64,000 nt of DNA from Balanoglossus misakiensis (taxonomy: Eukaryota; Animalia; Hemichordata): assembly GCA_040954595.2 (NCBI GenBank), contig JBECUI020000031.1, forward strand, positions 124,001-188,000, read 5' to 3'. Positions 1 through 18,308 of the stretch are shown here, one piece after another. Position 1 is the first letter of the stretch. The number at the start of each line of letters is the position of its first letter. The position numbers were made by a program, and so were the translations under genes. The notes below the pieces were generated by a model that saw only the letters and a list, made by a program, of their open reading frames with translations, was not told where the DNA came from and made no database searches.

Positions 1-716
1 AATGCTAACGCCGGGTAGGGGCTTGAGGGTGATGATGAGGCTTTGGTAAGCCTGTCTTATGTTTTCAATGACAGCGGGGTCCAAGGCCTGTTCTGGACCG
101 CCGAAGCCGCTCCAGAGGCCTTCAGTGTAGCCTGTTGTTTCTCCGATGGGGTAAAGGAGGGTGATCCCGGTCAAGGGGGCGGGAAAGGCCTCGGGAGGAC
201 TGCCTATAAAGCTGGGGGCCCTAGAGGCCAGGATGCTTAGCTTGTTGAGAGCCGTTCCGGCGAAGGCCAGATTGCCGATGGAGGTGATACCGTTACCTAT
301 CTGCACTTCGCTCAAGGAGGCAGCTGAGCTGAAGGCCTCGTCTCCTATAGTCGTGACGCTGTTGGGAATATTTATGCTGGTAAGGGTGGAATTTTTAAAG
401 GCTGCCTCGGCTATGGCCGTAACGGGCTTGTTATAAATGAAAGAGGGTATGCTGAGGTCGGTGCTGTCTTGTCTTGCCAGACCAGTTATAGTGATTTCCC
501 TGCCTTCGTCCTGGTAGGTAAGTGCGTCGAAACTAGGGGGGGCGGTGAGGTTGCTGCAGGAAGTTATCAGGTAGAAAACGAAAAGGAAAAGACCAACTTT
601 AGTGGCTAGGGTTTTTCTATGTTGTCTTACGCGGGGAAGTGAGTGAGTGAGTGAGTGAGTGAGTGAGTGAGTGAGTGAGTGAGTGAGTGAGTGAGTGAGT
701 TGATAGATAAATTCAT
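1..716 (-). CDS. 5' part of LRR/Fn3/GLUG surface lipoprotein paralog 1 (runs off the window); out of frame at the (ACTC)15 tract as assembled
   Basis: AAGGAG SD then ATG at 716. Downstream of the tract the body frame reads LPRVRQHRKTLATKVGLFLFVFYLITSC (lipobox), then sequence nearly identical to 2934-3570 and 6008-6640. In the ATG frame a TAA occurs at 629-627. Confidence 0.85.
638..700. repeat. Tetranucleotide microsatellite AGT(GAGT)15, i.e. (ACTC)15 on the coding strand, within the signal-peptide coding region
   Basis: Counted directly: 15 GAGT units at 641-700. Confidence 0.97.
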
Positions 717-748
717 ATGCTGGATCTCCTTACAAATTTGATTGGTCT

Positions 749-801
749 ATCCTATCGTAGGTATTCTTTTTTGTCAAGTCTTTTCTATAGGTAAAAGACT
801 T
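749..801 (-). promoter_or_regulatory. sigma70-type promoter (TTGACA-17-TAGGAT) with an inverted repeat AAGTCTTTT-N8-AAAAGACTT abutting the -35 box
   Basis: tgtcaa at 772-777, atccta at 749-754, IR at 776-801. The same layout recurs upstream of paralogs 2 and 3. Confidence 0.7.
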
Positions 802-964
802 TTTGATTGAGCAGTGATCTTGAATAAGGACACTACGCTTCTAAAGCTTATGACGTTTTAGAGAGAATGCTAAGTTTTTTGGAATTATTTTCTGTTTTTG
901 GGGAAGACTTCAGGGTTGGGGCGGCGATGGAGAGGTCCAGGGGGGGGCTGGTTGGGGGAGATGA

Positions 965-1049
965 GCCCTCCAAGGCCCGCACGGACTGCGGGGCTTGGAG
1001 GGCGGGATTGCTGGTAGAGGCATCATTCCCGCATTTGCGGGGGTGATGG
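965..1049 (-). terminator. Two GC-rich hairpins immediately downstream of paralog 2
   Basis: gccctccaaggcccgca-cggac-tgcggggcttggagggc (about 965-1003) and catcattccccgca-tt-tgcgggggtgatg (about 1021-1049). No clear U-tract. Confidence 0.5.
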
Positions 1050-3649
1050 CTAGGGGGTTGGTAGGGGGGTGTCGGGCTGGCCGGGGAAGTTGGTGATGTG
1101 GGGGTGGTAGGCGGGGGTGCCGTTCACCCGGCCTTCAATGACCCAATCGTTGACGGACCAGCCTAGCTTGCCAATTTCGGTTCCAGTGTACCAGCTTGGG
1201 GTTTTTAGTTGATCCAGGCTGACGGTGCTGCCAGAGGTGTTGGGGCTGGCTTGGGCATTGCCGTCAGGGTCTGTGAAACTCTGATTCACATAGCGGTAGC
1301 TGTTGGTTATGGTGCCTGTATCAATTAGTCCTATCAAACCACCCAGGTCGGCCCCTTGCCCCGAGACATTCCCAGTGGCATAGCTGTTTGTTATGCTACC
1401 GAAGCTGTGATTACCGACCAAACCACCCACGATGTTCCCTTGCCCCGAGAGATCCCCAGTGGCATAGCTGTTCTCTATGCTGCCTGAGTTGAATCCCGCC
1501 AAGCCGCCCAAATTGTCGCTGACCCCCGAAACAGTACCGGTGGCATAGCTGTCTGTTATGGAAGAAGTGTTGGTTCCAGCCAAACCACCCACAGTACCGT
1601 CCCCCGAGACATCTCCAGTGGCATAGTTGCCTGTCATGGAGGCTCTATTATTTCCAACCAAACCACCTACGTCCCTACCCTGACCTGAGACATTCCCGGT
1701 GGCATAGCTGCCTGTTATGGTGAATTGGCTGTGTCCAACCAAACCACCTACACTAGCGTCCCCCGAAACAGTACCAGTGGCATAGCTGTCTGTTATGGGA
1801 GCAAAGTTCCTTCCGACCAAACCACCTACAATGTGACTCTGCCCTGAGACATTCCCGGTGGCATAGCTGCTCGTTATGCTTCCCATTATCCAGCTGAATC
1901 CAACCAAACCACCCACGTAGTCCCCCTGACCCGAGACATCTCCAGTGGTATAGCTAGCCTTTATACTGCCGTCGTTGTACCCAGCCAAGCCACCCACATA
2001 CTCCTGCCCCGTGACAGAAGCCGCAGCATAGCTACCGCTTATGGTAGCAGCAGAGCGCCCGACCAAAGCACCCACATCGCGGTACCCCAAAACAGAGCCC
2101 CCAATCAGTCCCAGATCCTTTATCTCACTTCCAGCAACCGTGGTCCCCAAAAAACCGACTCTATTAGCTAAAGGTGTCGTGACGGTCATTCCCTCGATAC
2201 TGTGGTTTTTACCATCAAAACTCCCACCATACCCACCGCTTAGGTAGTTTCCATCGTCGTCATAAGTTCCAGGGCTAAGAGGGGTCCAGTTTCCGTTGTC
2301 GGCATCATCGTCGCTGTCGTAATGGTCGTTCATTACCCCATCGTTGTCGGCGTCGGCGAAGTTGAGGTCCATGCTTAGCTCGTAGTTCCAGTCCTCGGGG
2401 TAGTTTTCCGTATCCACTCCGATTTTGGCCAGTTCACTCAGGCGGTGGATGTACTGCTTGCCGTCGGCGGTGGGGATGAGGGGAGTGGAATAGCGGTATT
2501 CAGCGCTGCCGTCGCTGAGCTGGGCACGCAGGTAGTAGGGCCTTTCATTGCTGACCCCGCTGAGTTCCACTGCCTGAGGGCCGGGGCTGCCTGTAAAGGA
2601 AACCTTCTTGACCATGATGTTTAAAGCCTGGTCGGTGAAGGCTTGGAGTTCTGCTTCTAGTCCTAGGGGAATGCCAACTTCAACCATGATTTTTCCAGAA
2701 CGGGGAACGGCATCGGTAATGGCGATGCCATGGGGAGAGTAAGGATTAGGAAGCGTTATCCAATCCGTGGAGGCCTCCGGGGAGACCTGGCTCCCTTTGA
2801 CCCGCAGGTGGTAGGAGGTACCGTCGGTCAGGCCAGTCAGGCTTATCTCCTGGGATGTTGCTGCCGTCGGTTCGGAAACTGCTGTTGCGGTAGCTTCACT
2901 GCTAAAGTCAGCTTCGGTGTGAGCTTCTACGGTAATGCTAACGCCGGGTAGGGGCTTGAGGGTGATAATGAGGCTTTGGTAAGCCTGTCTTATGTTTTCA
3001 ATGACAGAGGGGTCCAAGGCCCGTTCTGGACCGCCGAAGCCGCTCCAGAGGCCTTCAGTGTAGCCTGTTGTTTCTCCGATGGGGTAAAGGAGGGTGATCC
3101 CGGTCAAGGGAGTGGGAAAGGCCTCAGCGGGGCTGCCTGTAAGGCTGGGGGCCCTTGGGGCCAGGATGCTTAGCTTGTTAAGGGCAGTTCCGGCGAATAC
3201 CAGATTGCCTATGGAGGTGATACCGTTACCTACATGTACTTCGCTCAAGGAGGCAGCTGAGTTGAAGGCCTCGTCTCCTATAGTCGTGACGCTGTTGGGA
3301 ATATTTATGCTGGTGAGGGGAGAGTTTTTAAAGGCTGCCTCGGCTATGGCCGTAACGGGCTTGTTGTGAATAAAAGAGGGTATGCTGAGGTCGGTGATGT
3401 CTCGTCTTGCCAGACCAGTTATAGTGATTTCCCTGCCTTCGTCCTGGTAGGTAAGTGCGTCGAAACTAGGGGGGGCGGTGAGGTTGCTGCAGGAAGTTAT
3501 CAGGTAGAACACAAAAAGGGAAAGACCAACTTTGCTGGCTAGGGTTTTTCTATGTTGTCTTACGCGGGGAAGTGAGTGAGTGAGTGAGTGAGTGAGTGAG
3601 TGAGTGAGTGAGTGAGTGAGTGAGTGAGTGAGTTGGTAAATAAATTCAT
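1050..3649 (-). CDS. LRR(BspA-type)/Fn3-like/GLUG-repeat surface lipoprotein paralog 2; out of frame at the (ACTC)15 tract as assembled
   Basis: ORF 1050..3512 contains LRR motif IPNSVTTIGDEAF, Fn3-like LTGLTDGTSYHLRV and about 11 GGLVG/SYATG repeats. The SD-preceded ATG at 3649 is one base out of frame with the lipobox FYLITSC. Confidence 0.9.
3571..3633. repeat. Tetranucleotide microsatellite AGT(GAGT)15 within the signal-peptide coding region of paralog 2
   Basis: Counted directly: 15 GAGT units at 3574-3633. Confidence 0.97.
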
Positions 3650-3681
3650 ATGCTGGATCTCCTTACAAATTTGATTGGTCT

Positions 3682-3734
3682 ATCCTATCGTAGTTATTCT
3701 TTTCTGTCAAGTCTTTGCCATAGGTAAAAGACTT
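3682..3734 (-). promoter_or_regulatory. sigma70-type promoter (TTGACA-17-TAGGAT) with the conserved inverted repeat
   Basis: tgtcaa at 3705-3710, atccta at 3682-3687, AAGTCTTTG-N8-AAAAGACTT at 3709-3734. Confidence 0.7.
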
Positions 3735-3894
3735 TTTGATTGAGCAGTGATATTGAATAAGGACACTACGCTTCAAAGCTTATTGCGTTTTAGAGGGAAT
3801 GCCAAATTTTTTGGAATTATTTTCTGTTTTTGGGGAAGACTTCAGGGTTGGGGCGGCGATGGAGAGGTCCAGGGGGGGGGTGGTTTGGGGAGAT

Positions 3895-4203
3895 GAGCCT
3901 TCCAAGGCCCGCACGGACTGCGGGCCTTGGAGGGCGGGACTGCTGGGTTGGGATAGGGCCGTTTGAGTTTATGGGAGAGATGCCGGGGTGAGATGGGGAA
4001 GTTTGGTCTTGGGGGGAGCCTCCCAGGGCCCGCCCGGATGGGGGGTCTTGGGGGGCGGAGATGATGCTTAGGGGGTTGGTAGGGAAGTGTCGGGCTGGCC
4101 GGGGGGGAGGTTCTCCGAGGGGGGTGAGAGGAGGGGGGCAGTTCGGTCTTTTGGGAAAGCTCTCCAAGTCCCACAGCTTCGGGGGGACTTGGAGGGGGGA
4201 TGG
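3895..4203 (-). repeat. Stack of three related GC hairpins separated by degenerate copies of the gene 3' end
   Basis: Hairpins at about 3895-3936, 4017-4056 and 4160-4200. Positions 4103-4068 read PGQPDTSLPTP-stop on the minus strand. Confidence 0.7.
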
Positions 4204-6665
4204 CTAGGATGTTGGTAGGGGAGTGTCGGGTTGGCCAGGGACGTCTTTGATGTGGGAGTGGTAGGGAGTGGTGCCGTTCACCCGGCCGTCGATGACCCAG
4301 TCTTCGGCGGACCAGCCTAGGTTCCCAGTGCCGATTATGGTGTACCAACTTGGAGTTTTTAGTTGAACCAGGCTAACGGTGCTGCCTAGGGTGTTGGGTG
4401 TAGCGAGGGCATTTCCGTCAGAGTCCGTGATACTCTGATTCGCATAGCGGTAGCTGTTCGTTATGGTGCCCAGGGATACTCCGACCAAACCACCCACCTG
4501 GGTGGAGCCACTCTCCCCCAAGACATTCCCTGTAGCATAGCTATTCGTTAAGATGCCTTGACTGATGTATCCTATCAAACCACCCGCACCATTGGTCCCC
4601 GAGACATCTCCAGTAGCATAGCTGCCTGTTATGCCAACACCTGAACTCTTCATATCCCCAACCAAACCACCCACGCTACTTCCCTGACCTGAGACATCCC
4701 CAGTGGCATAGCTGCCTGTTATGCTAGAAGCGTTGTACCCGGCCAAGCCGCCCACAACGTTGCTGCTACCCGTGACAGAACCCGTGGTATAGCTGCCTGT
4801 TATGACCCCACTATTATCTCCAACCAAACCACCCACTTTATTCCACTGACCTGAGACATCTCCAGTGGCATAGCTAGCCCTTATGCTACCACTGCTGTCT
4901 CCAGCCAAGCCACCCACGCTACTTCCCTGACCCGAGACAACCCCAGTGGCATGGCTATCTGTTATGGAGGCGCTATTATCTCCAACCAAACCACCCACTT
5001 TATTCCCCTGACCCGAGACATCTCCAGTGGCATAGCTAGCCCTTATGCTGCCGAAGTTGTACCCAGCCAAACCACCAACGCTTCTGCTACCCGTGACAGA
5101 AGCCGTAGCATAGCTGCCTATGATCTCTCCCTCGTTATACCCAACCAAACTACCTACGTTAGCATCCCCCGAGAAAGAGCCACCCAGCAGTTCCAGATCC
5201 TTTATCTCACTTCCAGCAACCGTGGTCCCAAAAAAACCGACTCTATTAGCTGAAGCTGTCGTGATGGTCATTCCCTCGATACTGTGGTTTTTACCATCAA
5301 AGTTCCCAGCATATCCACCGCTTAGGTAGTTTCCATCGTCGTCATAAATTCCAGGGCTAAGAGGGGTCCAGTTTCCGTTGTCGGCATCATCGTCGCTGTC
5401 GTAATGGTCGTTCATTACCCCATCGTTGTCGGCGTCGGTGAAGTTGAGGTCCATTCTTAACTCGTAGTTCCAGTTATCGGGGTAGTTTTCCGTATCCACT
5501 CCGATTTTGGCCAGTTCACTCAGGCGGTGGATGTACTGCTTGCCGTCGGCGGTGGGAATAAGGGGAGTGGAATAGCGGTATTCAGCGCTGCCGTCGCTGA
5601 GCTGGGCACGCAGGTAGTAGGCGGTCTCGTTACTGATCCCGCTGAGTTCCACTGTCTGAGGGCCGGGGCTGCCTGTCAAGGGAACCTCCTTGACCATGAT
5701 GCTTAAATCCTGGTCGGTGAAGGCTTGGAGTTGTGCTTCTAGTCCTACGGGAATGCCAACTTCAACCGTGATTTTTCCAGAACGGGGGACGGCATCGGTA
5801 ATGGCGATGCCATAGGGAGAGTAAGGATTAGGAAGTGTTATCCAATCCGTGGAGGTCTCCGGGAAGACCTGGCTCCCTCTGGCCCGCAGGCGGTAGGAGG
5901 TACCGTTGGTCAGGCCAGTCAGGCTTATCTTCTGGGATGTTGCTGCCGTCGGTTTGGAAACTGCTGTTGCGATGGTAGGGCCAGCTTCGGTGAGAGCTTC
6001 TACGGTAATGCTAACGCCGGGTAGGGGCTTGAGGGTGATGATGAGGCTTTGGTAAGCCTGTCTTATGTTTTCAATGACAGAGGGGTCCAAGGCCCGTTCC
6101 GGACCGCCGAAGCCGATCCAGGGGACTTCAGCGTAGCCTGTTGTTTCTCCGATGGGGTAAAGGAAGGTGATCCCGGTCAAGGGGGCGGGAAAGGCCTCGG
6201 CGGGGCTGCCTGTAAAGCTAGGGGCCCTTGGGGCCAGGATGATTAGCTTGTTAAGGGCCGTTCCGGCGAAGGCCAGATTGCCGATGGAGGTGATACCGTT
6301 ACCTATCTGCACTTCGCTCAAGGAGGCAGATGAGTTGAAGGCCTCGTCTCCTATAGTCGTGACGCTGTTGGGAATATTTATGCTGGTAAGGATAGAGTTT
6401 TTAAAGGCTGCCTCGGCTATGGCCGTAACGGGCTTGTTGTGAATAAAAGAGGGTATGCTGAGGTCAGTGCTCTCTCGTCTTGCCAGACCAGTTATAGTGA
6501 TTTCCCTGCCTTCGTCCTGGTAGGTAAGTGCGTCGAAACTAAGGGGGGCGGTGAGGTTGCTGCAGGAAGTTATCAGGTAGAAAACGAAAAGGAAAAGACC
6601 AACTTTGGCGGCTAGGGTTTTCTATGTTGTCTTACGCGGGGAAGAGGGTGTGTGTCTAAATTCAT
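4204..6665 (-). CDS. LRR/Fn3-like/GLUG-repeat surface lipoprotein paralog 3; frameshifted at A4 (A5 in paralogs 1 and 2) in the signal region
   Basis: ATG at 6665 reads MNLDTHPLPRVRQHRKP-stop. Adding one A at about 6618-6621 joins it to the lipobox FYLITSC and to ORF 4204..6321. Confidence 0.9.
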
Positions 6666-6697
6666 ATGTTGGATCTCCTTACAAACTTTATTGACCT

Positions 6698-6749
6698 ATT
6701 ATATAGCATGGCTGCGTTCTTGTCAAGGCTTGGCCATAGCCTAAGACTT
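6698..6749 (-). promoter_or_regulatory. Perfect consensus sigma70 promoter TTGACA-17-TATAAT with a degenerate copy of the inverted repeat
   Basis: tgtcaa at 6721-6726 and attata at 6698-6703. Confidence 0.8.
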
Positions 6750-6951: not shown

Positions 6952-9900
6952 TTAGGGAGTTGGTAGGGGGGTGTCGGGCTGGCTGGGGACGTCTTTGATG
7001 TGGGGGTGGTAGGGAGTGGTGCCGTTTACCCGTCCGTCGATGATCCAGTCATCGACGGACCAGCCTAGGTTGCCTGAGTCGGTGGAGGTGTACCAAGCCA
7101 GGGTTTTTAGTTGATCCAGGGTGACGGCGCTGCCTTTGATATTAGGAACGACGCCCTCAGGAGTGCTGATGCTCTGCTGGTCATAGTAGTAACCGCTCTG
7201 TATGATAGTATACCGAGAGCTTCCTGCCACCCTCCCAATATTAACGCCAGTTCCCGAGACATTTCCGGTGGCATAGCTGTTGTCTACTCTCCTGCGGTAG
7301 AGGTATCCGACCAAACCACCCACATGAGTGTTACCTGAGACATTCCCAGTGGCATAGTTTCCCGCTATAGTGACAGAGCTGTACCCGATCAAACCACCCA
7401 CGTAATTCCGACCCACGACTTCTCCGGTGGCATAGCTGCTCCTTGAGGTATCAAAGCTCCTTCCGACCAAACCACCCACATAATCAGCCTGTCCCGTGAC
7501 TGACCCAAGAGCATAACTACTGGTTATACTGGTGCCGCTGTGGCTGTACCCGACCAAACCACCCACCTGATTACCCTGCCCCGTGACTGACCCAAGAGCA
7601 TAACTACTCGTTATGTCGCCATTGTTGCTCCCAACCAAACCACCTACAGACTCCTTTTCTCCCGTGACTGACCCAGTAGCATAGCTCCCCGTTAAGTTCC
7701 TATCGTTGCTCCCAGCCAAACCACCAACATCATTTCCCTTTCCAGAGACATCCCCGGTGGCATAACTGTCCGTTATAGTGCCAAAATTGACCCCGACCAA
7801 ACCACCCACGGAGTCTCCCTCCCCCATGACGGAACCGGTCGCAGAGCTCCCCGTTATGGTGCTGTAATTCAGTCCAGCCAGACCACCTATGGTGTTATGC
7901 TGCCCCGTGACTGACCCGGTGGCATAGCTATCCATTATGCTATCCCCACCACTCTCTCCAACCAAACCACCCACGTAAAAATACCCTGTGACATCCCCGG
8001 TAGCATAACTGTCTGTTATAGTGACTCCGCTGCCTCTGTATCCAACCCCAACCAAACCACCCACGTAATTATACCCCGTGACTGACCCGGTGGCATGGCT
8101 ATCGCTGATAAGGCCTTTACTGTCTCCAACCAAACCACCCACGTAGGCCTTCCCCAAGACAGAGCCGATGGCATAGCTGTTCCTTATGCTGCCTTCGCTG
8201 TACCCGACCAAGCCACCAACGTGGGAATCCTGCCCACTGACTTCCCCGGAAGCATAGCTGCCCGTTATAATACCTTTACTCTCTCCAACCAAACCACCCA
8301 CGTAGGCCTTCCCCAAGACAGCCACCCCTAAGAGTCCCAGGTCCTTGATCTCTCCTCCGAAATTCATCACCCCAAATAAACCGACTTCATCAGCTCCAGG
8401 GGCCTGAATGGTCATTCCATCAATGCTGTAACTTTGACCGTCAAAGATTCCGTTATATCCCCCACTTACATAGATTTCATTTTCATCATAAATTCCAGGA
8501 GTAAGGGGTGCCCAGTTCCCGTTCCTACCGTCGTCGTCACTATCGTAGGGGTCATCCCTAAACCCGTCGTTGTTGGCGTCGGCGAAGTTAAGGTTCGTTT
8601 TCAACTCGTAGGCCCAGTTATCGGGGTAGTTGTCCGAATCCACCCCGATTTTGGCCAGTTCGCTCAGGCGATGGATGTGCTGCTTACCATCGGCAGTGGG
8701 GATAAGAGGGGTAGAATAGTCCCCTTGAACGGTATTACCGTCCAATAAGGCACGCAAATAATAGGAATTATCATTGCCGAGCCCATCCAGCACCAGAGTT
8801 TCAGGGTTTCCGGTTCCTGTAAAGGTAAGTTCCTTGGTGATGCTGGCAAAGCCAGCCTCCGTGGAGACTTGAACTCTCCCATCACTACCGTTGGAAGCCT
8901 CGATTATGGCCATTATCTGCCCTGACCTTGGTATAGCGTCAAGAATATTGAGGCTGGAGAGCCTATGGGGGGGGTTGTCGGCTACCACCCAGGGGCTTAT
9001 GTCCCTCTGTGCATTAATCCCCCGGGCCCGAATATAATAGGAGGTTGCGCTTAAGATTTCATCCGAACTGCTAAAGCTTACCTCGTCGATATTGCCAGTG
9101 GCTGCAATGGTTTTGCTTGCAACAAGGCTGGCGGCGTCAAAGGCCGCATCGTTAGAAAACTCAACTTCAATCTTCATGCCGTCCGAGACATCGATGTTCT
9201 CTAAGGTAGCAACTTTGACAGTAAAAGTTTCTATAGCGGTTTCGACTCTTAAGGTGGTGATTGCGGGATTCATGTGAGGTGTGTAGGGATTGCCCACGGC
9301 CTCCACCCAGCCAGTCGAGTCATTGTGGGCATTGACCCCTTTGACCAGGATGGAGTAGCTATCTTTCCCGGACAGGTTGGTAAAGGTCCTCGTGTCCAGA
9401 CCTCCCGTAGCCGTAAACTCTTTTAACTCGACCACAGAATCCGATGGAAAACCGAGCTTGTTAACTTGGATGCTAATGCTAATGCCGGCCAAGGCACGGA
9501 CCGTGACCGTGAGAGCATCCACGCTGGTTTGAATGCTTTCAATGGTGACTGTGGGATCGGGGTTGGGAGTGTAGGGGTTGTTCCCGGCTTCCACCCAGGC
9601 ACTCTCCTCATTTTGAGGATTAGTTCCTTTAACTCGGAGGTAATAAGGAGTACCGCCGGTCAGGCCGCTTAGGGTAAGGGGCTCCGAAACTCCTGTAGCC
9701 ATAAGATTCCCGGAAAAGGGCGTCTGGTCTGAATAGTCCGCTGTGATATGGGCTTCGGCAGTCATCGTGATGCCAGCTAAGGCATTGACCCTAAGGGTGA
9801 GGGCAGCCCCTTGAATCTGAACACTTTCAATGGTGACTGTGGGATCGGGGTTGGGAGCGTAGGGGTTGTTCCCGGCTTCCACCCAGGCACTCTCCTCATT

Positions 9901-11526
9901 TTGAGGATTAGTTCCTTTAGCTCGGAGGTAATAAGGAGTACCACTGCTCAGACCGCTTAGGGTGAGGGTCTCCGAAACTCCTGTAGCCTCAAAGTTCTGA
10001 GTAATGGGCTGCTGGTCTGAATAGTCCGCTGTGGTATGAGCTTCGACGGTAATCGTAATGTCGGCCTCGACCTTGACTGCGATGATGATGGCATCCACAG
10101 CTGTCTGTATGTTCTCAATGGTGACTGTGGGGTCTGGGTTGGGGGTGTGGGGATTGTTCTCGCTCTCCACCCAGGCACTCTCTTCATTTTGAGGATTAGT
10201 TCCTTTAGCTCGGAGGTAATAAGGAATATTGCCAGTCAGGCCGCTAAGGCTAAGAATCTCCGAAGCTCCTGTGGCCCTAAGATTCCCGGAAATGGGCATC
10301 TGGTCTGAATAGTCCGCTGCGGTATGGGCTTCGACGGTAATCGTAATGCCGGCCAAGGCCTTGACCCCAACGGTGAGGGTCCCCCCTCCAATCTGAACGT
10401 TCTCGATGGTGACTGCGGGATCGGGGTTGAGTCGGTAAGGATTGGCCGCAGCTTCCACCCAAGCGCTCTTTATGCCTTGGGGATTGGTCCCCCGAGCCCG
10501 GATATAATAAGAAGTGTCGGGCAATAGACCGTCAAAGCTTACGGTATCCGTTTCTTCTGTAACAGTAATATCCTTTCTGGTTCCCGCACCGGAGAAATCA
10601 GGACTGTTATAGAGCCATATTTCAACGTCAATGCCGGCAGAGGCCCCGACCGTGACGGTGAGGCCCTCCAAACTGACCTGAACTTTATCGATAGTAACAG
10701 CAGGACTCAGGTTGGGGGTGTAGGGATTGCCCTCCACCGCCAACCAGCCACTTGAGACATCTTGGTCGTTGGTGCCCATGACCTGAAGGTAATAGGGAAT
10801 GTTCTCCAGCTCTGTGAAAACCAGCCTCAAAGTAGCATCTATGACTCGGACATTCGTGGGGGCAAGGGCTCCTCCCTCGGGGAAGCTTGGGTCGGTATGG
10901 GCTTCGGCATCGTAGGTAATGGCGGGGAAGGTATTGAGTACCAGAGTGATGCTCTGAGCTCCTACCATCACCTCTTTAATGGGATCAGCATTCATGGAAG
11001 CAGTTTTTTTGCCAAAGGAGACCCATGGGACAACATCGTAGCCCCCTGCCTGAAGAGGATATATCAAAGCAGCTTCGTTCAGAGAATCGGGAAAGACCTC
11101 AGCGGCGTTGCCCTGAAGCCTTGGGGCCGTGGTAGCCATGATGTTCAGCCTTTTCAAAGCCGTACCGGCAAAGGCCTGGCTTCCTATGAAAGTTATACCC
11201 GTTCCAATACGTACTTCTTCCAGCGATTGGGCCTGGCTGAAAGCCTCCTCACCTATGGTAGTGATGCTGTCGGGAATGATGGCGCTGGTGATGGCCGTTC
11301 CCTTAAAGGCTGCCGCTTGAATTCTTGTTACCCGTATATTGTCAATTTGGGAAGGGATACTTAGATCGGTTTCCCCATTGACTACAAGGCCGGTTATAGT
11401 GATTTCTGAACCTTCTGTCATATACTGGAAGTTATCTGATTCATGTACTCCTGTTGTAGCTGGATTCTGACATCCGCTGAAAACGAGCACAAGGGATACA
11501 AAGAAGGATCTAAGGATATTTCTCAA
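6952..11526 (-). CDS. Large (1524 aa) LRR/multi-Fn3-like/GLUG-repeat surface lipoprotein, paralog 4 (in frame)
   Basis: AGGAG SD then TTG. Lipobox LVFSGC, BspA-type LRR, about 8 Fn3-like modules (W.EA.NNPY), about 14 GGLVG/SYATG repeats, tail PSQPDTPLPTP. Confidence 0.9.
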   Translation of the reverse strand: MRNILRSFFVSLVLVFSGCQNPATTGVHESDNFQYMTEGSEITITGLVVNGETDLSIPSQIDNIRVTRIQAAAFKGTAITSAIIPDSITTIGEEAFSQAQSLEEVRIGTGITFIGSQAFAGTALKRLNIMATTAPRLQGNAAEVFPDSLNEAALIYPLQAGGYDVVPWVSFGKKTASMNADPIKEVMVGAQSITLVLNTFPAITYDAEAHTDPSFPEGGALAPTNVRVIDATLRLVFTELENIPYYLQVMGTNDQDVSSGWLAVEGNPYTPNLSPAVTIDKVQVSLEGLTVTVGASAGIDVEIWLYNSPDFSGAGTRKDITVTEETDTVSFDGLLPDTSYYIRARGTNPQGIKSAWVEAAANPYRLNPDPAVTIENVQIGGGTLTVGVKALAGITITVEAHTAADYSDQMPISGNLRATGASEILSLSGLTGNIPYYLRAKGTNPQNEESAWVESENNPHTPNPDPTVTIENIQTAVDAIIIAVKVEADITITVEAHTTADYSDQQPITQNFEATGVSETLTLSGLSSGTPYYLRAKGTNPQNEESAWVEAGNNPYAPNPDPTVTIESVQIQGAALTLRVNALAGITMTAEAHITADYSDQTPFSGNLMATGVSEPLTLSGLTGGTPYYLRVKGTNPQNEESAWVEAGNNPYTPNPDPTVTIESIQTSVDALTVTVRALAGISISIQVNKLGFPSDSVVELKEFTATGGLDTRTFTNLSGKDSYSILVKGVNAHNDSTGWVEAVGNPYTPHMNPAITTLRVETAIETFTVKVATLENIDVSDGMKIEVEFSNDAAFDAASLVASKTIAATGNIDEVSFSSSDEILSATSYYIRARGINAQRDISPWVVADNPPHRLSSLNILDAIPRSGQIMAIIEASNGSDGRVQVSTEAGFASITKELTFTGTGNPETLVLDGLGNDNSYYLRALLDGNTVQGDYSTPLIPTADGKQHIHRLSELAKIGVDSDNYPDNWAYELKTNLNFADANNDGFRDDPYDSDDDGRNGNWAPLTPGIYDENEIYVSGGYNGIFDGQSYSIDGMTIQAPGADEVGLFGVMNFGGEIKDLGLLGVAVLGKAYVGGLVGESKGIITGSYASGEVSGQDSHVGGLVGYSEGSIRNSYAIGSVLGKAYVGGLVGDSKGLISDSHATGSVTGYNYVGGLVGVGYRGSGVTITDSYATGDVTGYFYVGGLVGESGGDSIMDSYATGSVTGQHNTIGGLAGLNYSTITGSSATGSVMGEGDSVGGLVGVNFGTITDSYATGDVSGKGNDVGGLAGSNDRNLTGSYATGSVTGEKESVGGLVGSNNGDITSSYALGSVTGQGNQVGGLVGYSHSGTSITSSYALGSVTGQADYVGGLVGRSFDTSRSSYATGEVVGRNYVGGLIGYSSVTIAGNYATGNVSGNTHVGGLVGYLYRRRVDNSYATGNVSGTGVNIGRVAGSSRYTIIQSGYYYDQQSISTPEGVVPNIKGSAVTLDQLKTLAWYTSTDSGNLGWSVDDWIIDGRVNGTTPYHPHIKDVPSQPDTPLPTP
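9541..10430 (-). repeat. Intragenic 288-bp (96-aa) tandem repeats encoding Fn3-like modules
   Basis: The motif atggtgactg(t/c)ggg recurs at about 9542, 9830, 10118 and 10406. Confidence 0.9.
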
Positions 11527-11739
11527 GGACTATGTCTCCTACTGTTTTTGTGTGATTTACTACTCATTATATCTCATTGTTTCCAATACTCTTTCCAAGT
11601 TTCCATTTTACAGAAAAAATTTATGATTTCAAAACTAATCCGACATCTCCCCCGAAAACTCATCCAAATTCATCTTCAGTCTTACCTATCTGCCCATCAA
11701 TCAGGGACAAGGTCATGTTGGAGGCCCTGTCCTCCTATG

Positions 11740-11901: not shown

Positions 11902-12309
11902 ATCTCCTTTTGTACGCTGTGGTCCTTTTTTTCAAGTCCTTTTCATGGTTCAAGACTTTTTGATTAGGCAGCTACAGTACTTTTTTGACAGATGACATGT
12001 TGGGGAAGAAAATGAAAAAAATTGTAACAATATTTTCTCAGGTGTAGAGCTTAATGCTTTTGGGGAAAGCTTAGGTCTGAGATGGAGCCTATCGGTCTAG
12101 GAGCTAAACTTCCTGGTTTGCCCAGGAGATTGAGAGATTCTATGTTCGGAAGAGGAATTCTCCTGATTTTAGTGAACAATGTCATTTCCCAGCAGAAAGA
12201 AACTGTGAGCCTAGGGGAAGATTGTGGAAAGGCATGGTGACTGAAATCACTTTCTAACAGGCATTTTTCTTGCAAGCAGAGCACATAACTTCAGCGGAAT
12301 TCCTTCTTG

Positions 12310-12370
12310 TGTGTTATTTTGACACGCACCATGTTCCCATTTCTACACTTGTGTCAAAATGGCACAAGTG
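12310..12370. promoter_or_regulatory. Pair of enhancer-like palindromic sites (putative sigma54 activator UAS)
   Basis: CACTTGTG-TCAAAATGG-CACAAGTG at 12346-12370 and an inverted related copy TGTGTTATTTTGACAC at 12310-12325. Confidence 0.55.
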
Positions 12371-12462
12371 GGGATATTGTGTGAACTTCGAGATTTTCCA
12401 TGGAGGATTTTAATTTATTTAATTCTTTTCCATACAATACATTACTTAAAATAATAAAAACC

Positions 12463-12477
12463 TGGCACGGTTTATGC
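12463..12477 (+). promoter_or_regulatory. sigma54 (-24/-12) promoter
   Basis: TGGCAC-GGTTT-ATGC matches TGGCAC-N5-TTGC, about 40 nt upstream of the hsp20 start, preceded by an AT-rich tract. Confidence 0.7.
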
Positions 12478-12514
12478 TTATTAGAAAGTAGAGACATTCT
12501 AGGAGGTAAAAAAG

Positions 12515-12940
12515 ATGTACTTAATTAAGAATTCTTGGCCTAGAGCAGGCCTTAGTTATGCCGAGAGCATGCTTGACAGTTTTTTCGAAAACGGAATTTC
12601 TGGGACTCGCTCTTTCCCGGTAAACGTTGCTGAGACCCCAGATACCTATATTATTCAGGCAGAACTTCCCGGTTATAGTGCCGAAAATCTCAATATTAAG
12701 GTAGAGAACAACCTGTTGGTCATAGAAGGCCAGATAGCCGACAAGGAGTCAGAGGGGTCTTCAAAAAATTTCAAGTGGCTGTTCCGGGAATACCGCAGAA
12801 ATGAGGTGATGCGAAGTTTTGTTATTCCTCAGAATGTGGACCAGGATTCCTTGGTAGCAGAAATGGAGAATGGCTGCTTGAAGCTTACTCTGAAAAAATA
12901 TGACAAGGCCAAAACACGCTCCATACCCATTAGGTCCTGA
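12515..12940 (+). CDS. Hsp20/alpha-crystallin family small heat-shock protein
   Basis: AGGAGG SD; FPVNVAET...AELPG, RSFVIP...A.MENGCLKLTL.K and C-terminal IPI motif. Confidence 0.92.
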   Translation: MYLIKNSWPRAGLSYAESMLDSFFENGISGTRSFPVNVAETPDTYIIQAELPGYSAENLNIKVENNLLVIEGQIADKESEGSSKNFKWLFREYRRNEVMRSFVIPQNVDQDSLVAEMENGCLKLTLKKYDKAKTRSIPIRS

Positions 12941-12945
12941 AGGAG

Positions 12946-12984
12946 AGAAGCCGTCGTGGTCAGTACCGACGGCTTCTTTAGTTT
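12946..12984 (+). terminator. Intrinsic terminator after hsp20
   Basis: agaagccgtcg...cgacggcttct stem followed by ttagttt. Confidence 0.7.
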
Positions 12985-13073
12985 GAGAACATATTGAGGT
13001 GCTAAAGCTTTGCTAAGCATGGGAACTCATCTTTCTCCAGGGTTTGGGGAAGGATGAGTTTCGGTGAGACAGC

Positions 13074-14000
13074 TCAGGGATAATGGCGTTCCACAGGATA
13101 GACCTCGTTGTTTCCCCATTCAGCCCATCCTCCATTGTACAGTGCCACATTATCATACCCTGCTAAGGTTAGGGCAAGCCAATTATGAGCAGCCCGAATT
13201 CCAGTGTGGCTAAAAGTTACCACTTTTTTGTCAGGAGAAAGACCTTTGGAGGCATAAAAGCTTGCCAGTTCTTCGGAAACTCGAAAGTTCACAGGAAGAT
13301 CTTGGGTGTTATTGTGGATCCATTCTACCCAAATGGCCCCCGGAATATGACCGCCCCTGGCGGCCCGCACATCGGTACCAACATACTCCCCGAGGCCCCT
13401 GGCATCAACAATGACAAAATCGGGATTATCAAGATTCTTCAGGATATCTCTTCCCGTCAGTAAGAGTTGCTCTTGTATTTCCGGAACTAGAGAGCCCCGC
13501 AGAACCTGGGTAAATTCCAGGCTAAGGTCACGGCCCTCGGATTCCCAGAGGTCATAACCTCCGTTCAACAGTGACCAATTTTTATGCCCAAGATAGGCAA
13601 GGGTCCAGGCCAACCTGGCGGCCCAAAGTCCATTCCCCCCATCGTAGAGAACGACAACAGAATCGTTAGAGACTCCAGCTTCTTCTAAAAAGTATGTCAC
13701 TTCTTTTATTCTGCTCAGTATGCCCGCTGGGTTTGTTAATACTTTCTGAAAATTTCTGTAGTCCACAAAAACGGCCTGAGGAAGGTGCCCTGTCTGATAA
13801 TCTTCAAGGCTCCGTCCTATGTCTAGGATAACGAGTTCGGGGAATTCCTGGTTTGCAGCAAGCCAATCAGCATTTATTAAAAGCGAAGGGGGTTCTCCAA
13901 CGATGACTTCTTTTTCTTCTGGAAGATTTTTGCTTCCCCCCGCAATCACTACCTGAGCGGCAAGGAAAAGAAAGGTAAATAGGCTAAGTTTTTGTTTCAT
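13074..14000 (-). CDS. Exported tandem-domain rhodanese/sulfurtransferase homolog (catalytic Cys replaced by Ser)
   Basis: Signal peptide; GHLPQA, AARLAW, LNGG, DARG..EY.G, GHIPGA and LYNGGWAEW motifs; active-site loop reads FSHTGIRA. Confidence 0.88.
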   Translation of the reverse strand: MKQKLSLFTFLFLAAQVVIAGGSKNLPEEKEVIVGEPPSLLINADWLAANQEFPELVILDIGRSLEDYQTGHLPQAVFVDYRNFQKVLTNPAGILSRIKEVTYFLEEAGVSNDSVVVLYDGGNGLWAARLAWTLAYLGHKNWSLLNGGYDLWESEGRDLSLEFTQVLRGSLVPEIQEQLLLTGRDILKNLDNPDFVIVDARGLGEYVGTDVRAARGGHIPGAIWVEWIHNNTQDLPVNFRVSEELASFYASKGLSPDKKVVTFSHTGIRAAHNWLALTLAGYDNVALYNGGWAEWGNNEVYPVERHYP

Positions 14001-14235
14001 TCGTTACTTTCCTAATTAAAACAGAGAGGAGAACTTTCTCCGTAATTGAGTCGCTTTTGGGAACAGTAAGGGGTTACTTCAATTGAAGTTATTTTTTATT
14101 TTCATAGTATACAGCATGTTTTCCTTGATTTCATTAAAATCTTGAATATTTAAATTTTTGCGGCGGCCAGCAGAAATGCTGTCTACTGAAAACTGTTTCA
14201 TTAGCCAATTGATCCTATCCGTTTCCTTAAGTCCA

Positions 14236-15183
14236 TTAATTCCGTAACACAGTCGAGCGCAGGGCTAAGTTGTGGGACCGCCTGAACATTTCCGCCCGGA
14301 TTAGCATAGAAGAAATAATGAGGGAGCCTCCGAGAACAAGACGCCAAGTCACCGGCTCGTGAAAAAGAGCCACAGCCCACATAAGGGCAAAAATTACTTC
14401 CAAGTAAGATAAGTGACTTACTGCCGCAACGGAAAGACGGCTGAAAGCCGAGAAAAGAAAAACAAAGGCCAAAATTCCCACAATAAAGCCGTTTGCCACT
14501 GACCAAGCCAATGCAATCCAGGAAGTCTCGGGCAACACACCCAGAAAGGCGGGAAGAAAAACGAAGCCTCCCAGAAGGTTCTGCCAGAAGGTTGCCCTCA
14601 GACGGTCAATCCCTTCCTTGCGGATAAGAACAAGAACCAGTGCATAAATTGCGGCACTGCCTAGCATCAAAGTCATTCCCAGGAAGTCCTGATCATAAAA
14701 ACTGAATTTGCTTCCTGAATACAGTACCATGACTCCACTGAGAGCCAGGAGTGTAAAAAAAACATCACGTATTTCTAATTTTTCACCAAGGACAAGATAG
14801 GCAAAAAACAAGGAAAAGGCAGGCCAGGTGTAGAGGATTATAATAGCCTTTCCTATGGAAATCAGACGGAAAGACTCGAAATAGAGAAGGAGCCGTAGAG
14901 CATTGAGTGCCGAGGCAACAAGAAGCCGGATTGGTCTACCAAGACCTTGGCGGGGTGTTCTTGCTTTGGACAGATTCTCCCGAGAATAACTACGGGTTGC
15001 CGCTCGGTCCTTGAAAAAAAGCCAAAAACCCAAAAAAACTGCTGGGATAGCACAGCGAACAAAGGTCATTGCCCCAGAGGGAAGATTTGCCATACGGATA
15101 AAAGGTCCACTAAAGCCCATCAGAGCAGAAGATAGAACAACTTCTGTAACTCCAACCATCATGAGCCGACGATTTTGGTTCAT
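14236..15183 (-). CDS. EamA/DMT family transporter
   Basis: About 10 hydrophobic helices in two repeats; YTWP, LGEK, YLEV, FHEP motifs. Confidence 0.85.
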   Translation of the reverse strand: MNQNRRLMMVGVTEVVLSSALMGFSGPFIRMANLPSGAMTFVRCAIPAVFLGFWLFFKDRAATRSYSRENLSKARTPRQGLGRPIRLLVASALNALRLLLYFESFRLISIGKAIIILYTWPAFSLFFAYLVLGEKLEIRDVFFTLLALSGVMVLYSGSKFSFYDQDFLGMTLMLGSAAIYALVLVLIRKEGIDRLRATFWQNLLGGFVFLPAFLGVLPETSWIALAWSVANGFIVGILAFVFLFSAFSRLSVAAVSHLSYLEVIFALMWAVALFHEPVTWRLVLGGSLIISSMLIRAEMFRRSHNLALRSTVLRN

Positions 15184-15297
15184 AGGTACAAATATGAACT
15201 AATTAAGTAAGCTCTACCAGTAGCATTTTAAGAAAGCCTTTAAATATTTGCTTCTTCTCAGGGGGATTAAGCCATCATTCGTTATGCTGGAATGGTA

Positions 15298-15326
15298 TTG
15301 ACCATTTCTCTAGTTTTCTTTATAAT
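15298..15326 (+). promoter_or_regulatory. sigma70 promoter of tRNA-Leu
   Basis: TTGACC-17-TATAAT. Confidence 0.75.
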
Positions 15327-15339
15327 ACTTCCCTAGTAC

Positions 15340-15423
15340 GCTGGCGTGGTGAAATTGGTATACACGATAGACTCAAAATCTGTTGGAGGCGACTCCGTGT
15401 GGGTTCGAGTCCCACCGCCAGTA
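15340..15423 (+). tRNA. tRNA-Leu(CAA)
   Basis: Acceptor stem gctggcg/cgccagt, D-loop TGGTA, anticodon loop CTCAAAA, long variable arm, GGTTCGAGTCC; CCA not encoded. Confidence 0.95.
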
Positions 15424-15626
15424 ATTGTGTATTGGATGCCTGTTTTAAAAAACGGGCCTCTGAAAATTTCGCAATAATCAAATCTTCCTGCCATCATAAC
15501 CCACCACCTATCCGCCTCCAAAGCTTCCCTATCCAGCTAGAATTTCAGGCAGATATCTGGCAAGGTTGGATGCCTTATACAAAAATCCGCTACATCTTCC
15601 AGAAAAACAGCGCTGCCATTCCTGTG

Positions 15627-15664
15627 TATAATTTGTCCCCTGAATCTTGCAAGGGACAAATTAT
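15627..15664. terminator. Hairpin immediately after the stop of paralog 5
   Basis: ataatttgtccc-N13-gggacaaattat. Confidence 0.6.
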
Positions 15665-15666
15665 CG

Positions 15667-18308
15667 CTAAGGGATGGGAGTTTGGGGTTGATCAGGAACT
15701 TGTTCTGTAGTGTCACTGAGAAATATGTGGGGGTGATAGGCGGGGGTAGCATTCACAAAACCATCGAATTGCCAGTTGTTGTCGGACCAGTTTAGTTTGC
15801 TTGGATCGGTGTACCAATCTAGGGTTTTTAGTTCGGCTAGGGACACAATGAGGCCATCGGTGTTGGGGGTGCTGTAGGCATTGCCGTCAGGTCTAGTAAT
15901 GTTTTGGTTTCCATAGCGATAGGATTGGGTTGGGGTAAAAGTATTTTCATTTAACCCAAACAAACCGCCGAGGGAGCTCTGCCCCTGGACATCTCCGGTA
16001 GCGTAGCAGAAGTTTACGGTGGCAGAAGCTCCGAGTGATCCTACCAAAGCACCCACGCGACTGTTCCCGACCACATTCCCGGTAGCATAGCTGCCCATTA
16101 CTGCATACTCATTGTATCCAGCCAGTCCACCAGTATTGCTGTTTCCTGTTATCTTCCCGGTGGCATAGTTATCGGCTACGGTACCAACATTGTATCCGAC
16201 AAGTCCACCGATACTATCATTGCCTGAAACCTCTACAGAGGCATGGCTGCGGCTTAAATGAGAATTATTGTCATTGTGTCCAACGAGTCCACCGACATTG
16301 TCGTTGCCTGAAACCTTCCCAGAAGCATAGCTATTCCAAAGAATATTCTTATTGTATCCGGCAAGTCCACCGATATTATCATTGCCTGAAACCTCTACAG
16401 AGGCATGGCTGTGGTCTATTGTATTGCTATTGTAACCGACCAGTCCGCCGGTATTATCGCCTCCGATAACCTCCCCGACGGCATAGCTGTAGCTTACAAG
16501 ACCAGAGTTGTATCCAAGCAGAGCACCTACATAGTTTCCTTCTGAAACGTTCACCTCCAAGTCAAGAAGCCCAAGATTTTTAATTTCTCCATCGATATGA
16601 AGAGTGCCAAACAAACCGACGTCTGATCCTTCGCTGCTCAGTATACTCATATTACTAATCGTATGATTCCCGCCATCAAAGACGCCGGCATAACCTCCGT
16701 CTTCGAGGCTTCCATCTACCCCCAAAATCCCGGAGGTGAGAGGTGACCAGTTTCCGTTACCAACAACGTCGTCGCTATCGTAGAGGTCTCCCATAATCTC
16801 GTCGTTGTTGGCGTCGGCGAAGTTGAGGTCCATTTTCAACTCGTAGCTCCAGTCAAGGGGATAGTTTTCCTTATCCACTCCGATTTTGGCTAGTTCGCTC
16901 AGACGGTGGATGTACTGCTTGCCGTCGGCGACGGGGATGATGGGGGTAGAATAGTGGTACACATTGTCGTCGGCCTGGAGGACGACACGCAGGTAGTAGG
17001 TGCTATCATCACTGAGTCCGTTTAGTTCCAGTGTTTTCACGTTGCCCGGGCCCTCGCCTGTAAAGGTGAGTTCCTTGGAGATCGTCGTGAAATCTTCATT
17101 CATGGAGACCTGGATTTTTGCCTGGGTTCCTGTGATAGCCTCAACCATGGCGGTTATCTTTCCTGAACGAGGAACGACGTCAAGAATATGGAGACTGTGA
17201 AGAGTATAGGGATTGTTAGCGGCCTCTACCCAATTACCGGTTAACCCGGATGGAGTACTCCCCTGAATCCGAAGGTAGTAAGGGGTATCTAAGTTTAAGC
17301 CAGAAAGTGATAATATCAGTTGTTCACCTTCGGCCAAAACAGGTTCTGTTGCTATGCCCTGATCAGAATAATCCGCTGCGGTATGAGCCCAGGCAGTAAC
17401 GATAACACCTGGCAAGGTATCAACCTCCAGGATGAAGTTATCCCAATCACTTCGAATATTTCTTATGCTGGCTACGGCCCCAGGACTGGGGGAGATGGGG
17501 TTGCCCGGGAGTTCCATCCATTCAGAAACGTTTTCCAGGGGATCTTGTACCTTGACTTGCAGATAGTAAGGAGTTTCGTTGATCAAGCCGGCTAAGATTA
17601 CTTCCTGAGAAGTTGCTATGGTCGGATCGGAACTTGCGCTTGCTGCGGGAACGTCGCCAAAGGGAGCTTCTGTGTGAGCCTCTACGGTCAGGATGAAGCC
17701 AAGAGGGATAGTGATGGTAAGAGCAATACTTTGATCCTTCGGTTCTACATTTTCAACAACATTGGTATCGAGAAGGAAAATTTTTGTACCAAAATCGCTC
17801 CAGGGGGCAACATCATAACCTGTGCTTACAATGGGGCGACGAAGAATAACTTCTTCCAAAGAGGCGGAGAAGGTATTGGGGGGTCCGGACAAAGTTGGTG
17901 CCGTAGGGGCCAGAATGGTCAGATTTTGCAGGGAAGCCGTCCCCGAAAAAGCCAGACTGCCTATAAAGCTAAGGCCCCCTCCTATATGCACTTCCTCTAG
18001 TAAGGCGGCAAGATAAAAAGCCTTGTCTTCTATGGTTGTTACACTGTCTGGAATACTCACGCTGGTAATGGCCGACTGTTCAAAGGCTGACTTGGCTATC
18101 TTTGTCACCGATTTACTAAGAATACTGGAAGGAATTACGATAGGACCATTCTTCTCGGCCGCCAAGCCAGTTATGGTTACTCCCAAGCCTTCAACTTGGT
18201 AGGTAACCCCTGACTCATCGATATGAGAAGAAACAAGAGAATTATTGCAGGCAACAAGCAGGAAAACGAAGAAAAAAAGGAGCCCAACGTTTTATTAAAT
18301 ATTTTCAT
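15667..18308 (-). CDS. LRR/Fn3-like/GLUG-repeat surface lipoprotein paralog 5; frameshifted in the signal region near a T7 tract
   Basis: GGGAGG SD then ATG at 18308 (MKIFNKTLG...). Adding one base at the T7 tract (a7 at 18272-18278) or the preceding G run gives ...FFVFLLVACNNS... continuous with ORF 15667..18186. Same domains as paralogs 2-4. Confidence 0.88.

What the first reader, a model, noticed from the sequence alone, without database searches (positions are those of the whole stretch)
1..18308. Candidate phase-variable, diversified adhesin repertoire: 4 of 5 paralogous LRR-Fn3-GLUG lipoproteins are switched off in the signal peptide
Seen: five paralogs share one architecture. Paralogs 1, 2, 3 and 5 each have an SD-preceded ATG that needs exactly +1 base to reach the lipobox, and the lesion lies at a simple repeat: (ACTC)15, (ACTC)15, A4 vs A5, and T7. 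Only paralog 4 is in frame. The 2.3-4.6 kb bodies of paralogs 2-5 have no frameshift despite many G/C runs, so the lesions are concentrated in under 130 nt per gene. Established: slipped-strand tetranucleotide repeats at 5' ends switch genes on and off in Haemophilus and Neisseria contingency loci, and BspA-type LRRs mediate host binding. Inference: a combinatorial ON/OFF display system for variable binders in a probably host-associated spirochaete. I do not know of this family being described.
Basis: partly seen in the sequence, partly recalled or inferred. Interest (0 to 1): 0.85.

Follow-up and report, generated by a model that had tools for sequence, protein, structure and literature searches.

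The report
Repeat-switched surface lipoproteins of a spirochaete
An uncultured spirochaete, likely living on an acorn worm, carries a family of related lipoprotein genes, two of which have a 15-unit four-base repeat inside the signal peptide that likely flips them on and off at random, while a third apparent 'off' gene is in frame in an independent assembly (likely an error in this one) and a fourth cannot be settled, so this is a known switching trick in an undescribed protein family.

Summary
Five paralogous lipoprotein genes (LRR, Fn3-like sandwiches, GLUG beta-helix) lie on the minus strand of 1-18308. As assembled, four 5' ends are one base short of frame. The four cases are not equal.
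P1 and P2: an (ACTC)15 tract sits five codons after the ATG, the only such tracts in 64 kb. They are in frame only at 1, 4 ... 13, 16 units, which is textbook contingency-locus anatomy. Switching itself was not observed.
P5: a 107-kb contig of run X1 lacks two homopolymer bases there and is in frame, so 'off' is likely a consensus error.
P3: A4 is unresolved. The only covering contig is a 63x pile of paralogs carrying A5. The window also has at least nine frameshifts in ordinary genes and a tRNA one base short.
That depth suggests about eight such 5' ends genome-wide. N-terminal halves of P2 and P3 are 92-97% identical, their GLUG arrays 73-90%.
The organism is a spirochaete with no close genome on record; unreviewed scan notes place the assembly in an acorn worm. 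No full-length relative was found, and the scan had not noted this before.
Verdict: a likely opa-like switchable surface repertoire, 2 of 5 genes rather than 4 of 5.

The parts
1..716 (-). P1: lipoprotein paralog, signal peptide and LRR, cut by the window edge; out of frame as assembled
   Evidence: 94.6% identical to the P2 5' region over 1014 nt
638..700 (-). (ACTC)15 tract of P1, in the n-region of the signal peptide; in frame at n = 1 mod 3
749..777 (-). sigma70-like promoter of P1 (10 of 12 consensus bases), followed by an AAGGAG ribosome-binding site
   Evidence: consensus match only
1050..3649 (-). P2: lipobox Cys at 3491, LRR, Fn3-like region, 9 GLUG repeats; out of frame as assembled
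3571..3633 (-). (ACTC)15 tract of P2
3682..3710 (-). sigma70-like promoter of P2 (10 of 12)
4204..6665 (-). P3: same 5' type as P1/P2 but no tract (14-nt segment, the length of a one-unit allele); Cys at 6564; 8 GLUG repeats; out of frame as assembled
6618..6621 (-). A4 run of P3 (A5 in P1, P2 and in the collapsed X1 contig); status unresolved
6698..6726 (-). perfect sigma70 consensus promoter of P3 (12 of 12)
6952..11526 (-). P4: in-frame 1524-aa paralog with a different signal peptide, an expanded Fn3-like stalk (about 288-nt repeats) and 13 GLUG repeats
   Evidence: 5' end identical in X1 contig 6
11780..11990 (-). decayed P1-P3-type promoter and 5' end with no gene body
15667..18308 (-). 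P5: Cys at 18249, 7 GLUG repeats; out of frame in the window, in frame in X1's contig
18272..18285 (-). T7 and G3 runs of P5, each one base longer than in X1's contig (likely consensus errors)

Best explanation
P1 and P2 are lipoprotein genes with a 15-unit ACTC tract five codons into the signal peptide, which likely acts as a slipped-strand ON/OFF switch in a multi-copy family of predicted surface binders, whereas P5's frameshift is likely an assembly error and P3's is unresolved. Shown: with 15 units the reading stops after 29 residues; with 13 or 16 units the frame runs through the lipobox (one ON length for two OFF). The tract only lengthens the n-region ahead of the basic and hydrophobic parts. 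The tract-less P3 segment has exactly the length of a one-unit allele, so the tract likely grew from a single seed in an in-frame ancestor. Inferred: each tract gains or loses units during replication independently, so a population mixes cells that display different subsets of paralogs. Predicted product: a lipid-anchored LRR cap, an Fn3-like stalk of variable length and a distal GLUG beta-helix. Its repeat number (9, 8, 13, 7) and loop residues differ between paralogs while the N-terminal halves of P1-P3 stay over 90% identical. The beta-helix or LRR likely binds host mucus or surface molecules; no ligand is shown.
For: Tract uniqueness and chance level. Frame rule and early stop. Promoter and SD for each of P1-P3. 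Fifteen units exceed the published cut-off of 5 for tetranucleotides (PMC5953494, passages) and match the Haemophilus pattern of 15+ units with one ON per two OFF (PMC4235727, passages). The bodies are intact with pN < pS in 8 of the 10 segment comparisons made, all except P2/P3 Fn3-like (0.089 vs 0.075) and within noise for the short signal segments, which argues against long-dead pseudogenes. P5 is in frame in X1's contig, and all three X1 indels there are one-base differences in homopolymer runs. Background errors: RNase II has 2 frameshifts, a hybrid histidine kinase 3 and the 50.8-51.3 kb gene at least 1 against intact relatives; FeoB and a Gfo/Idh/MocA gene have split Pfam domains; a tRNA has a two-base anticodon. 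Family size: one contig at depth 63 over the shared 5' end against 5.7-8.5 for unique contigs, plus loose ends unlike any window copy. Fold: pLDDT 80.4, with LRR, beta-sandwiches and beta-helix. Spirochaete.
Against: No tract-length variation was seen: the read-laying tool skips the two tracts and the runs are held only as contigs. Both tracts have exactly 15 units, which independent hypermutable loci would not often show; this may be chance, conversion between copies or a consensus artefact. If the true length were 16 the genes would simply be ON. The region around P1-P4 is otherwise accurate (seven X1 contigs, about 9.4 kb, 0 differences), so P3's A4 could be real. One of two X1 substitutions in the P5 body is synonymous, so the P5 patch may be a second strain rather than error. 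Summed contig depth is not a copy number, and all runs come from one sample. No tetranucleotide tract was found in 17 of 17 GLUG-gene loci from 7 other genomes of the class, so there is no comparative support. The test for gene conversion among P1-P3 was inconclusive (P = 0.005 on 45 sites, 0.33 on 34 thinned sites). Binding function and host rest on inference.
Confidence: 0.68

Rival explanations
1. All four out-of-frame 5' ends are real switches: ACTC tracts in P1/P2, an A-run in P3 and a T-run in P5 give a 4-of-5 OFF combinatorial display.
For: All four need +1 as assembled. P3 has a perfect promoter and lies in an otherwise accurate stretch. The P5 T-run does differ between the window (7) and X1 (6).
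Against: P5 differs from X1 by two separate homopolymer bases 5 nt apart inside a 275-nt patch with six differences. The published cut-off for poly-A/T is 11 or more (PMC5953494), and short runs arise by chance (PMC11868660 section 6). More than 30 A7+/T7+ runs lie in this window. At least nine frameshifts sit in ordinary genes.
Confidence: 0.1
2. The tracts are real but not a working switch: either they drift neutrally in redundant, decaying copies, or the true length is an ON length and 15 is a consensus slip shared by both copies.
For: Both tracts have the same length. The assembly is error-prone. A decayed sixth 5' end lies at about 11.8 kb. No switching was observed.
Against: No other tetranucleotide run of 4 or more units exists in 64 kb, so microsatellites do not accumulate freely here. 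The tract sits where contingency tracts sit. The bodies are intact under purifying selection. Even an ON consensus would leave a hypermutable non-triplet tract in the frame.
Confidence: 0.17
3. The switch is real but the proteins are not host adhesins: they are glycan-capture or nutrient-binding lipoproteins, or phage or predator targets whose loss is the point of switching.
For: GLUG lipoproteins are common in other genomes of the class, with up to 107 first-look candidates per genome. The best structural matches include Bacteroides surface proteins of unknown function. Beta-helices are general scaffolds (PMC9637739, passage).
Against: The LRR belongs to the BspA/TpLRR/PcpA type, whose members bind host surfaces (recalled knowledge). 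There is no HExxH motif and no M26 catalytic region.
Confidence: 0.3

Closest known systems
Neisseria opa family (PMC5953494 and PMC4235727, passages read)
   Same: A multi-copy surface-protein family, each copy with its own non-triplet repeat switch; conserved ends with variable binding regions; some copies have too few repeats to switch (as P3 here). That the opa repeat lies in the signal-peptide coding region is recalled, not read.
   Different: Opa are integral beta-barrels with CTCTT pentamers in human pathogens and commensals. These are lipoproteins of LRR, Fn3-like and beta-helix domains with an ACTC tetramer in the n-region, partly in tandem, and switching is not demonstrated.
Haemophilus influenzae tetranucleotide contingency loci (PMC4235727, passages)
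   Same: Tetranucleotide tracts of 15+ units in 5' coding regions; one ON state per two OFF states.
   Different: A different phylum and an unrelated protein family; here the tract is shared by paralogs of one family.
Treponema pallidum tpr / tp0126 poly-G phase variation (PMC7864442, passages)
   Same: Simple-repeat phase variation of a paralogous surface family in a spirochaete.
   Different: Poly-G tracts in promoters that act on transcription of outer-membrane proteins; here a tetranucleotide frameshift in a lipoprotein leader.
Mycoplasma Vlp/Vpma combinatorial lipoproteins (PMC11868660, passages)
   Same: Combinatorial display of lipoprotein paralogs with variable repeat regions.
   Different: The review ascribes that switching to site-specific recombination; unrelated proteins.
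BspA/TpLRR-type LRR proteins (PF13306) and the GLUG beta-helix of M26 IgA1 proteases (PF07581)
   Same: Sequence and fold matches to 6mlx, 4oju, 4cp6 (LRR) and to 3n6z, 6xjb, 7uvk (beta-helix).
   Different: No HExxH motif or M26 catalytic region; no database protein with the whole LRR-Fn3-GLUG architecture was found.

Membership tests
SSR-mediated translational phase variation (P1, P2) | Non-triplet repeat tract in the 5' coding region above the length cut-off (5 or more tetranucleotide units) | tested here: met
   15 units; cut-off from PMC5953494
SSR-mediated translational phase variation (P1, P2) | Tract longer than genome composition predicts | tested here: met
   Only two such tracts in 64 kb; at most 3 units in 100 of 100 simulations
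SSR-mediated translational phase variation (P1, P2) | Unit number sets the frame and no downstream start bypasses the tract | tested here: met
   In frame at n = 1 mod 3. No in-frame ATG/TTG lies between tract and lipobox; P2's GTG at 3512 lies seven codons before the Cys, inside the hydrophobic stretch
SSR-mediated translational phase variation (P1, P2) | Tract length varies within a population | not testable with these tools
   Runs are held as contigs and the tool skips the tracts
SSR-mediated translational phase variation (P1, P2) | Reversible switching at a rate detectable without selection | not testable with these tools
   Criterion from PMC11868660 section 6
SSR-mediated translational phase variation (P5) | Tract above cut-off (poly-A/T of 11 or more) and a lesion explained by that one tract | tested here: not met
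   T7; X1's contig is in frame through two separate one-base differences
SSR-mediated translational phase variation (P3) | Tract above cut-off | tested here: not met
   A4/A5 and (AC)4 are below the cut-offs; the true allele is unresolved
Bacterial lipoprotein | Basic n-region, hydrophobic stretch and lipobox Cys | tested here: met
   Seen by eye in all five body frames; no signal-peptide predictor was run
BspA-type LRR adhesin | LRR_5 domain | tested here: met
   PF13306 above the gathering cut-off in P2-P5
BspA-type LRR adhesin | Surface exposure and binding to host ligands | not testable with these tools
   No experiment available
M26 IgA1 metalloprotease | HExxH zinc motif and catalytic region | tested here: not met
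   No HExxH in P2-P5; no Peptidase_M26_C hit; motif defined in PMC9637739

The most novel reading that the evidence does not exclude
The spirochaete carries a genome-wide bank of about eight or more LRR-Fn3-beta-helix lipoproteins, most with their own ACTC switch, whose beta-helix repeats are shuffled between copies. That would be an opa-like ON/OFF plus mosaic display system in the symbiont of an invertebrate without antibodies, driven by innate receptors, phages or niche changes.
Probability: 0.35. Interest if true: 0.72.

Novelty: new member of a known kind. Interest (0 to 1): 0.5.

Why it matters
[quoted passage not shown] A Haemophilus-length tetranucleotide switch in a paralogous lipoprotein family of an uncultured spirochaete, likely from an acorn worm, would be a test case outside antibody-bearing hosts, and it can be tested from existing raw reads. 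The spirochaete phase variation I found in print is promoter poly-G in Treponema pallidum; four searches for a tetranucleotide or invertebrate-symbiont case gave no match or only that review and the TprL paper. The case also warns that '+1 at a short homopolymer' in a bacterial contig of this quality is not evidence of switching.

Tried and rejected
No whole genome is held, so paralogs could not be counted directly.
Relatives of the family: none in GTDB contigs (14 pattern hits, 0 confirmed). The 7 metagenome loci match the GLUG part only; the two inspected had no tetranucleotide tract. The best 120 of 240 protein hits cover at most 52% of P2. The middle region gave 0 hits and, by exhaustive search, 115 partial hits with best E 1.8e-15. 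33 of 121 related genomes hit either the LRR or the GLUG part and no listed match spans both; at most 4 candidates were scored per genome.
An (ACTC)6 pattern was found in 1 of 121 genomes, not in a lipoprotein gene. The shared 5' motif was not found in viral contigs.
No RNA holder was listed; this says nothing on expression. X2 covers little and X3 nothing.
Joints between GLUG repeats in X1 contigs (table 5) may be further paralogs or mis-laid repeats and were not used as proof of recombination. The gene-conversion runs test was inconclusive. Positive selection is not shown: pN < pS in the GLUG region (0.24 vs 0.44), and the paired repeats may not be orthologous.
Rejected: M26 protease; a structured RNA at the 5' ends (only two tRNAs in 1-22000); a host microsatellite pasted in by misassembly (the tract sits at the homologous place in two diverged copies).
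The Atlas search returned only generic GLUG clusters at 0.89-0.90. Paper searches for GLUG as an adhesin or for the Haemophilus hgp CCAA case gave nothing usable. The frameshifts in ordinary genes were not checked against reads, so their being errors rather than pseudogenes is inferred. No earlier scan note on this sequence or theme was found. No supplements were read.
Full report
Observation. Five paralogous genes lie on the minus strand between 1 and 18308: P1 (cut by the window edge), P2, P3 and P4 in tandem, and P5 beyond four unrelated genes (HSP20, rhodanese, EamA, tRNA-Leu). From start codon to lipobox Cys there are 158, 158, 101, 54 and 59 nt, so P1, P2, P3 and P5 are each one base short of frame and P4 is in frame. 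The bodies of P2-P5 are open. P1 and P2 carry perfect (ACTC)15 tracts at 638-700 and 3571-3633, the only tetranucleotide runs of four or more units in the window; none of 100 Markov simulations exceeded three units.

The assembly is not clean. Against intact genes of related genomes, the window's RNase II is split over three frames, a hybrid histidine kinase over four pieces and the gene at 50.8-51.3 kb over at least two. Four of the five breaks placed in the first two genes fall at runs of three or four identical bases. FeoB and a Gfo/Idh/MocA gene have Pfam domains split between frames, and the tRNA at 21723-21792 has a two-base anticodon. That is at least nine frameshifts outside the family, most of them in 48.8-55.2 kb. 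I infer that they are consensus errors; they were not checked with reads. Error is patchy: seven X1 contigs covering about 9.4 kb of 6909-17134 match the window with no difference.

P5 and P3. Three runs of one sample and one study were listed, two holding part of the stretch, all kept as contigs; X1 may be the source sample. A 107-kb X1 contig spans the P5 5' end and lacks one base at 18278 and one at 18283, which makes the start-to-Cys distance 57 nt, in frame. The same contig differs at 18339, 18419, 18478 and 18551, and at 17415 and 17582 in the body. All three indels are one-base differences in homopolymer runs. Two separate extra bases 5 nt apart in a patch of six differences are better explained by a low-quality consensus than by a switch. 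A second strain is not excluded, since one of the two body substitutions is synonymous. T7 is below the published cut-off of 11 for poly-A/T (PMC5953494, passages). At P3 only one contig covers the A-run: depth 63, A5, with P1- and P2-type letters nearby, so it is a majority of collapsed paralogs and P3's own allele is not resolved. It ends where tract-bearing and tract-less 5' ends diverge, which is what a graph holding both types would give; this is indirect.

P1 and P2. Each has a sigma70-like promoter and an AAGGAG site. The tract begins at codon 5-6, ahead of the basic and hydrophobic parts of the leader. The frame is open at 1, 4, 7, 10, 13, 16 or 19 units; at 15 the reading stops after 29 residues. 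P3's tract-less segment is 14 nt, exactly a one-unit allele, so the tract likely expanded from a seed in an in-frame ancestor. No usable in-frame start bypasses it. This matches Haemophilus contingency loci, where most tracts have 15 or more units and one state in three is ON (PMC4235727, passages). The defining traits of phase variation, reversibility and rate (PMC11868660 section 6, read), could not be tested, because the read-laying tool skips the tracts. That both tracts have 15 units is unexplained.

The proteins. LRR_5 and GLUG pass the Pfam cut-offs in P2-P5; fn3 is hit only in P4. An AlphaFold2 model of mature P3 on a 30-row alignment (mean pLDDT 80.4, pTM 0.64) shows an LRR, beta-sandwiches and a long beta-helix. 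Sequence and fold searches match TpLRR/PcpA-type LRRs, Fn3 pairs and the beta-helix of M26 IgA1 proteases and of Bacteroides 3n6z. There is no HExxH motif, so these are not M26 proteases (PMC9637739, passages). The GLUG arrays have 9, 8, 13 and 7 repeats by my pattern, with fixed glycines and variable loop positions (37 units). P2 and P3 are 92-97% identical in 150-nt windows up to the beta-helix and 73-90% after it. pN is below pS in most segments, so there is purifying selection but no shown positive selection. Gene conversion among P1-P3 is inconclusive. The 63x contig against 5.7-8.5x unique contigs, and loose ends unlike any window copy, suggest about eight P1-P3-type 5' ends in the genome or population; the tool warns that depth is not copy number.

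Organism and relatives. The named RlmN hits among the top ten are Spirochaetes at 63-64% identity (best hit overall 65%). RNase II is 57-63% identical to the nearest of 401 genomes of the class, so no close genome is on record. No protein with the whole architecture was found. GLUG lipoproteins as such are common in other genomes of the class, but none of 17 loci from 7 genomes had a tetranucleotide tract. Unreviewed scan notes describe other pieces of this assembly as acorn-worm-like (not tested here). A single spirochaete OTU dominated the Spirochaetes that made up 36% of the microbiome of the acorn worm Saccoglossus bromophenolosus (PMC6315191, passages); whether it is this organism is unknown.

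Mechanism and rivals. Most likely (0.68), P1 and P2 are slipped-strand contingency genes in a larger family of lipid-anchored binders with exchangeable beta-helix tips, P5 is an ordinary intact paralog, and P3 is either intact or singly mutated. The 4-of-5 version is unlikely (0.1). Neutral or mis-called tracts remain possible (0.17). Apart from the switch, the binding target could be nutrient glycans or the proteins could be phage targets rather than adhesins (0.3).

Comparison and novelty. It works like Neisseria opa and the Haemophilus tetranucleotide loci; membership is met on anatomy and untested on switching. In spirochaetes I found promoter poly-G variation in T. pallidum (PMC7864442, passages) and no tetranucleotide leader frameshift (searches; the library lacks most subscription papers). 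Searches for an invertebrate-symbiont case gave nothing. The mechanism is known; the family and the lineage appear undescribed. I rate it a new member of a known kind, interest 0.5.

Noticed in passing
window:57208-62295 (-): A 1695-aa predicted lipoprotein with several Fn3 domains and a C-terminal GLUG-like region, in frame and without a leader tract; a more distant relative of the family's domains.
   Followed up: partly
window:48800-55250: A cluster of frameshifts in GDSL hydrolase, Gfo/Idh/MocA, RNase II, histidine kinase and one more gene; probably a low-quality stretch of the assembly.
   Followed up: partly
window:21723-21792 (+): A tRNA with a six-base anticodon loop (two-base anticodon in ARAGORN), probably tRNA-Gly missing one base.
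   Followed up: partly
window:27628-27688: FeoB is split in two frames near its second Gate domain.
   Followed up: partly
window:720-1050, 3650-4200, 6670-6950: A repeated intergenic block between P1-P4 with G8-G9 runs about 160-200 nt upstream of the promoters; X1 contigs show one-base length differences at 940, 3872 and 4193, which may be paralog differences or errors.
   Followed up: partly
window:11780-11990 (-): A decayed promoter and leader of the P1-P3 type with a C10 run and no gene body.
   Followed up: partly
L041:2340 and L041:4050 (G045); L034:7048 (G210): (TA)6 tracts about 100 nt upstream of two tandem GLUG lipoprotein reading frames, and a G9 run about 110 nt upstream of another; possible promoter-type switches in other genomes of the class.
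   Followed up: no
G045, G075, G013, G007, G210: 30-107 first-look candidates per genome for the family profile (only 4 scored each), suggesting large GLUG-lipoprotein expansions in several genomes of the class.
   Followed up: partly
window:23388-24614 (+): A lipoprotein-like FGE-sulfatase-domain gene.
   Followed up: no
window:20300-21700: About 1.4 kb of AT-rich sequence with no ORF of 100 aa.
   Followed up: no
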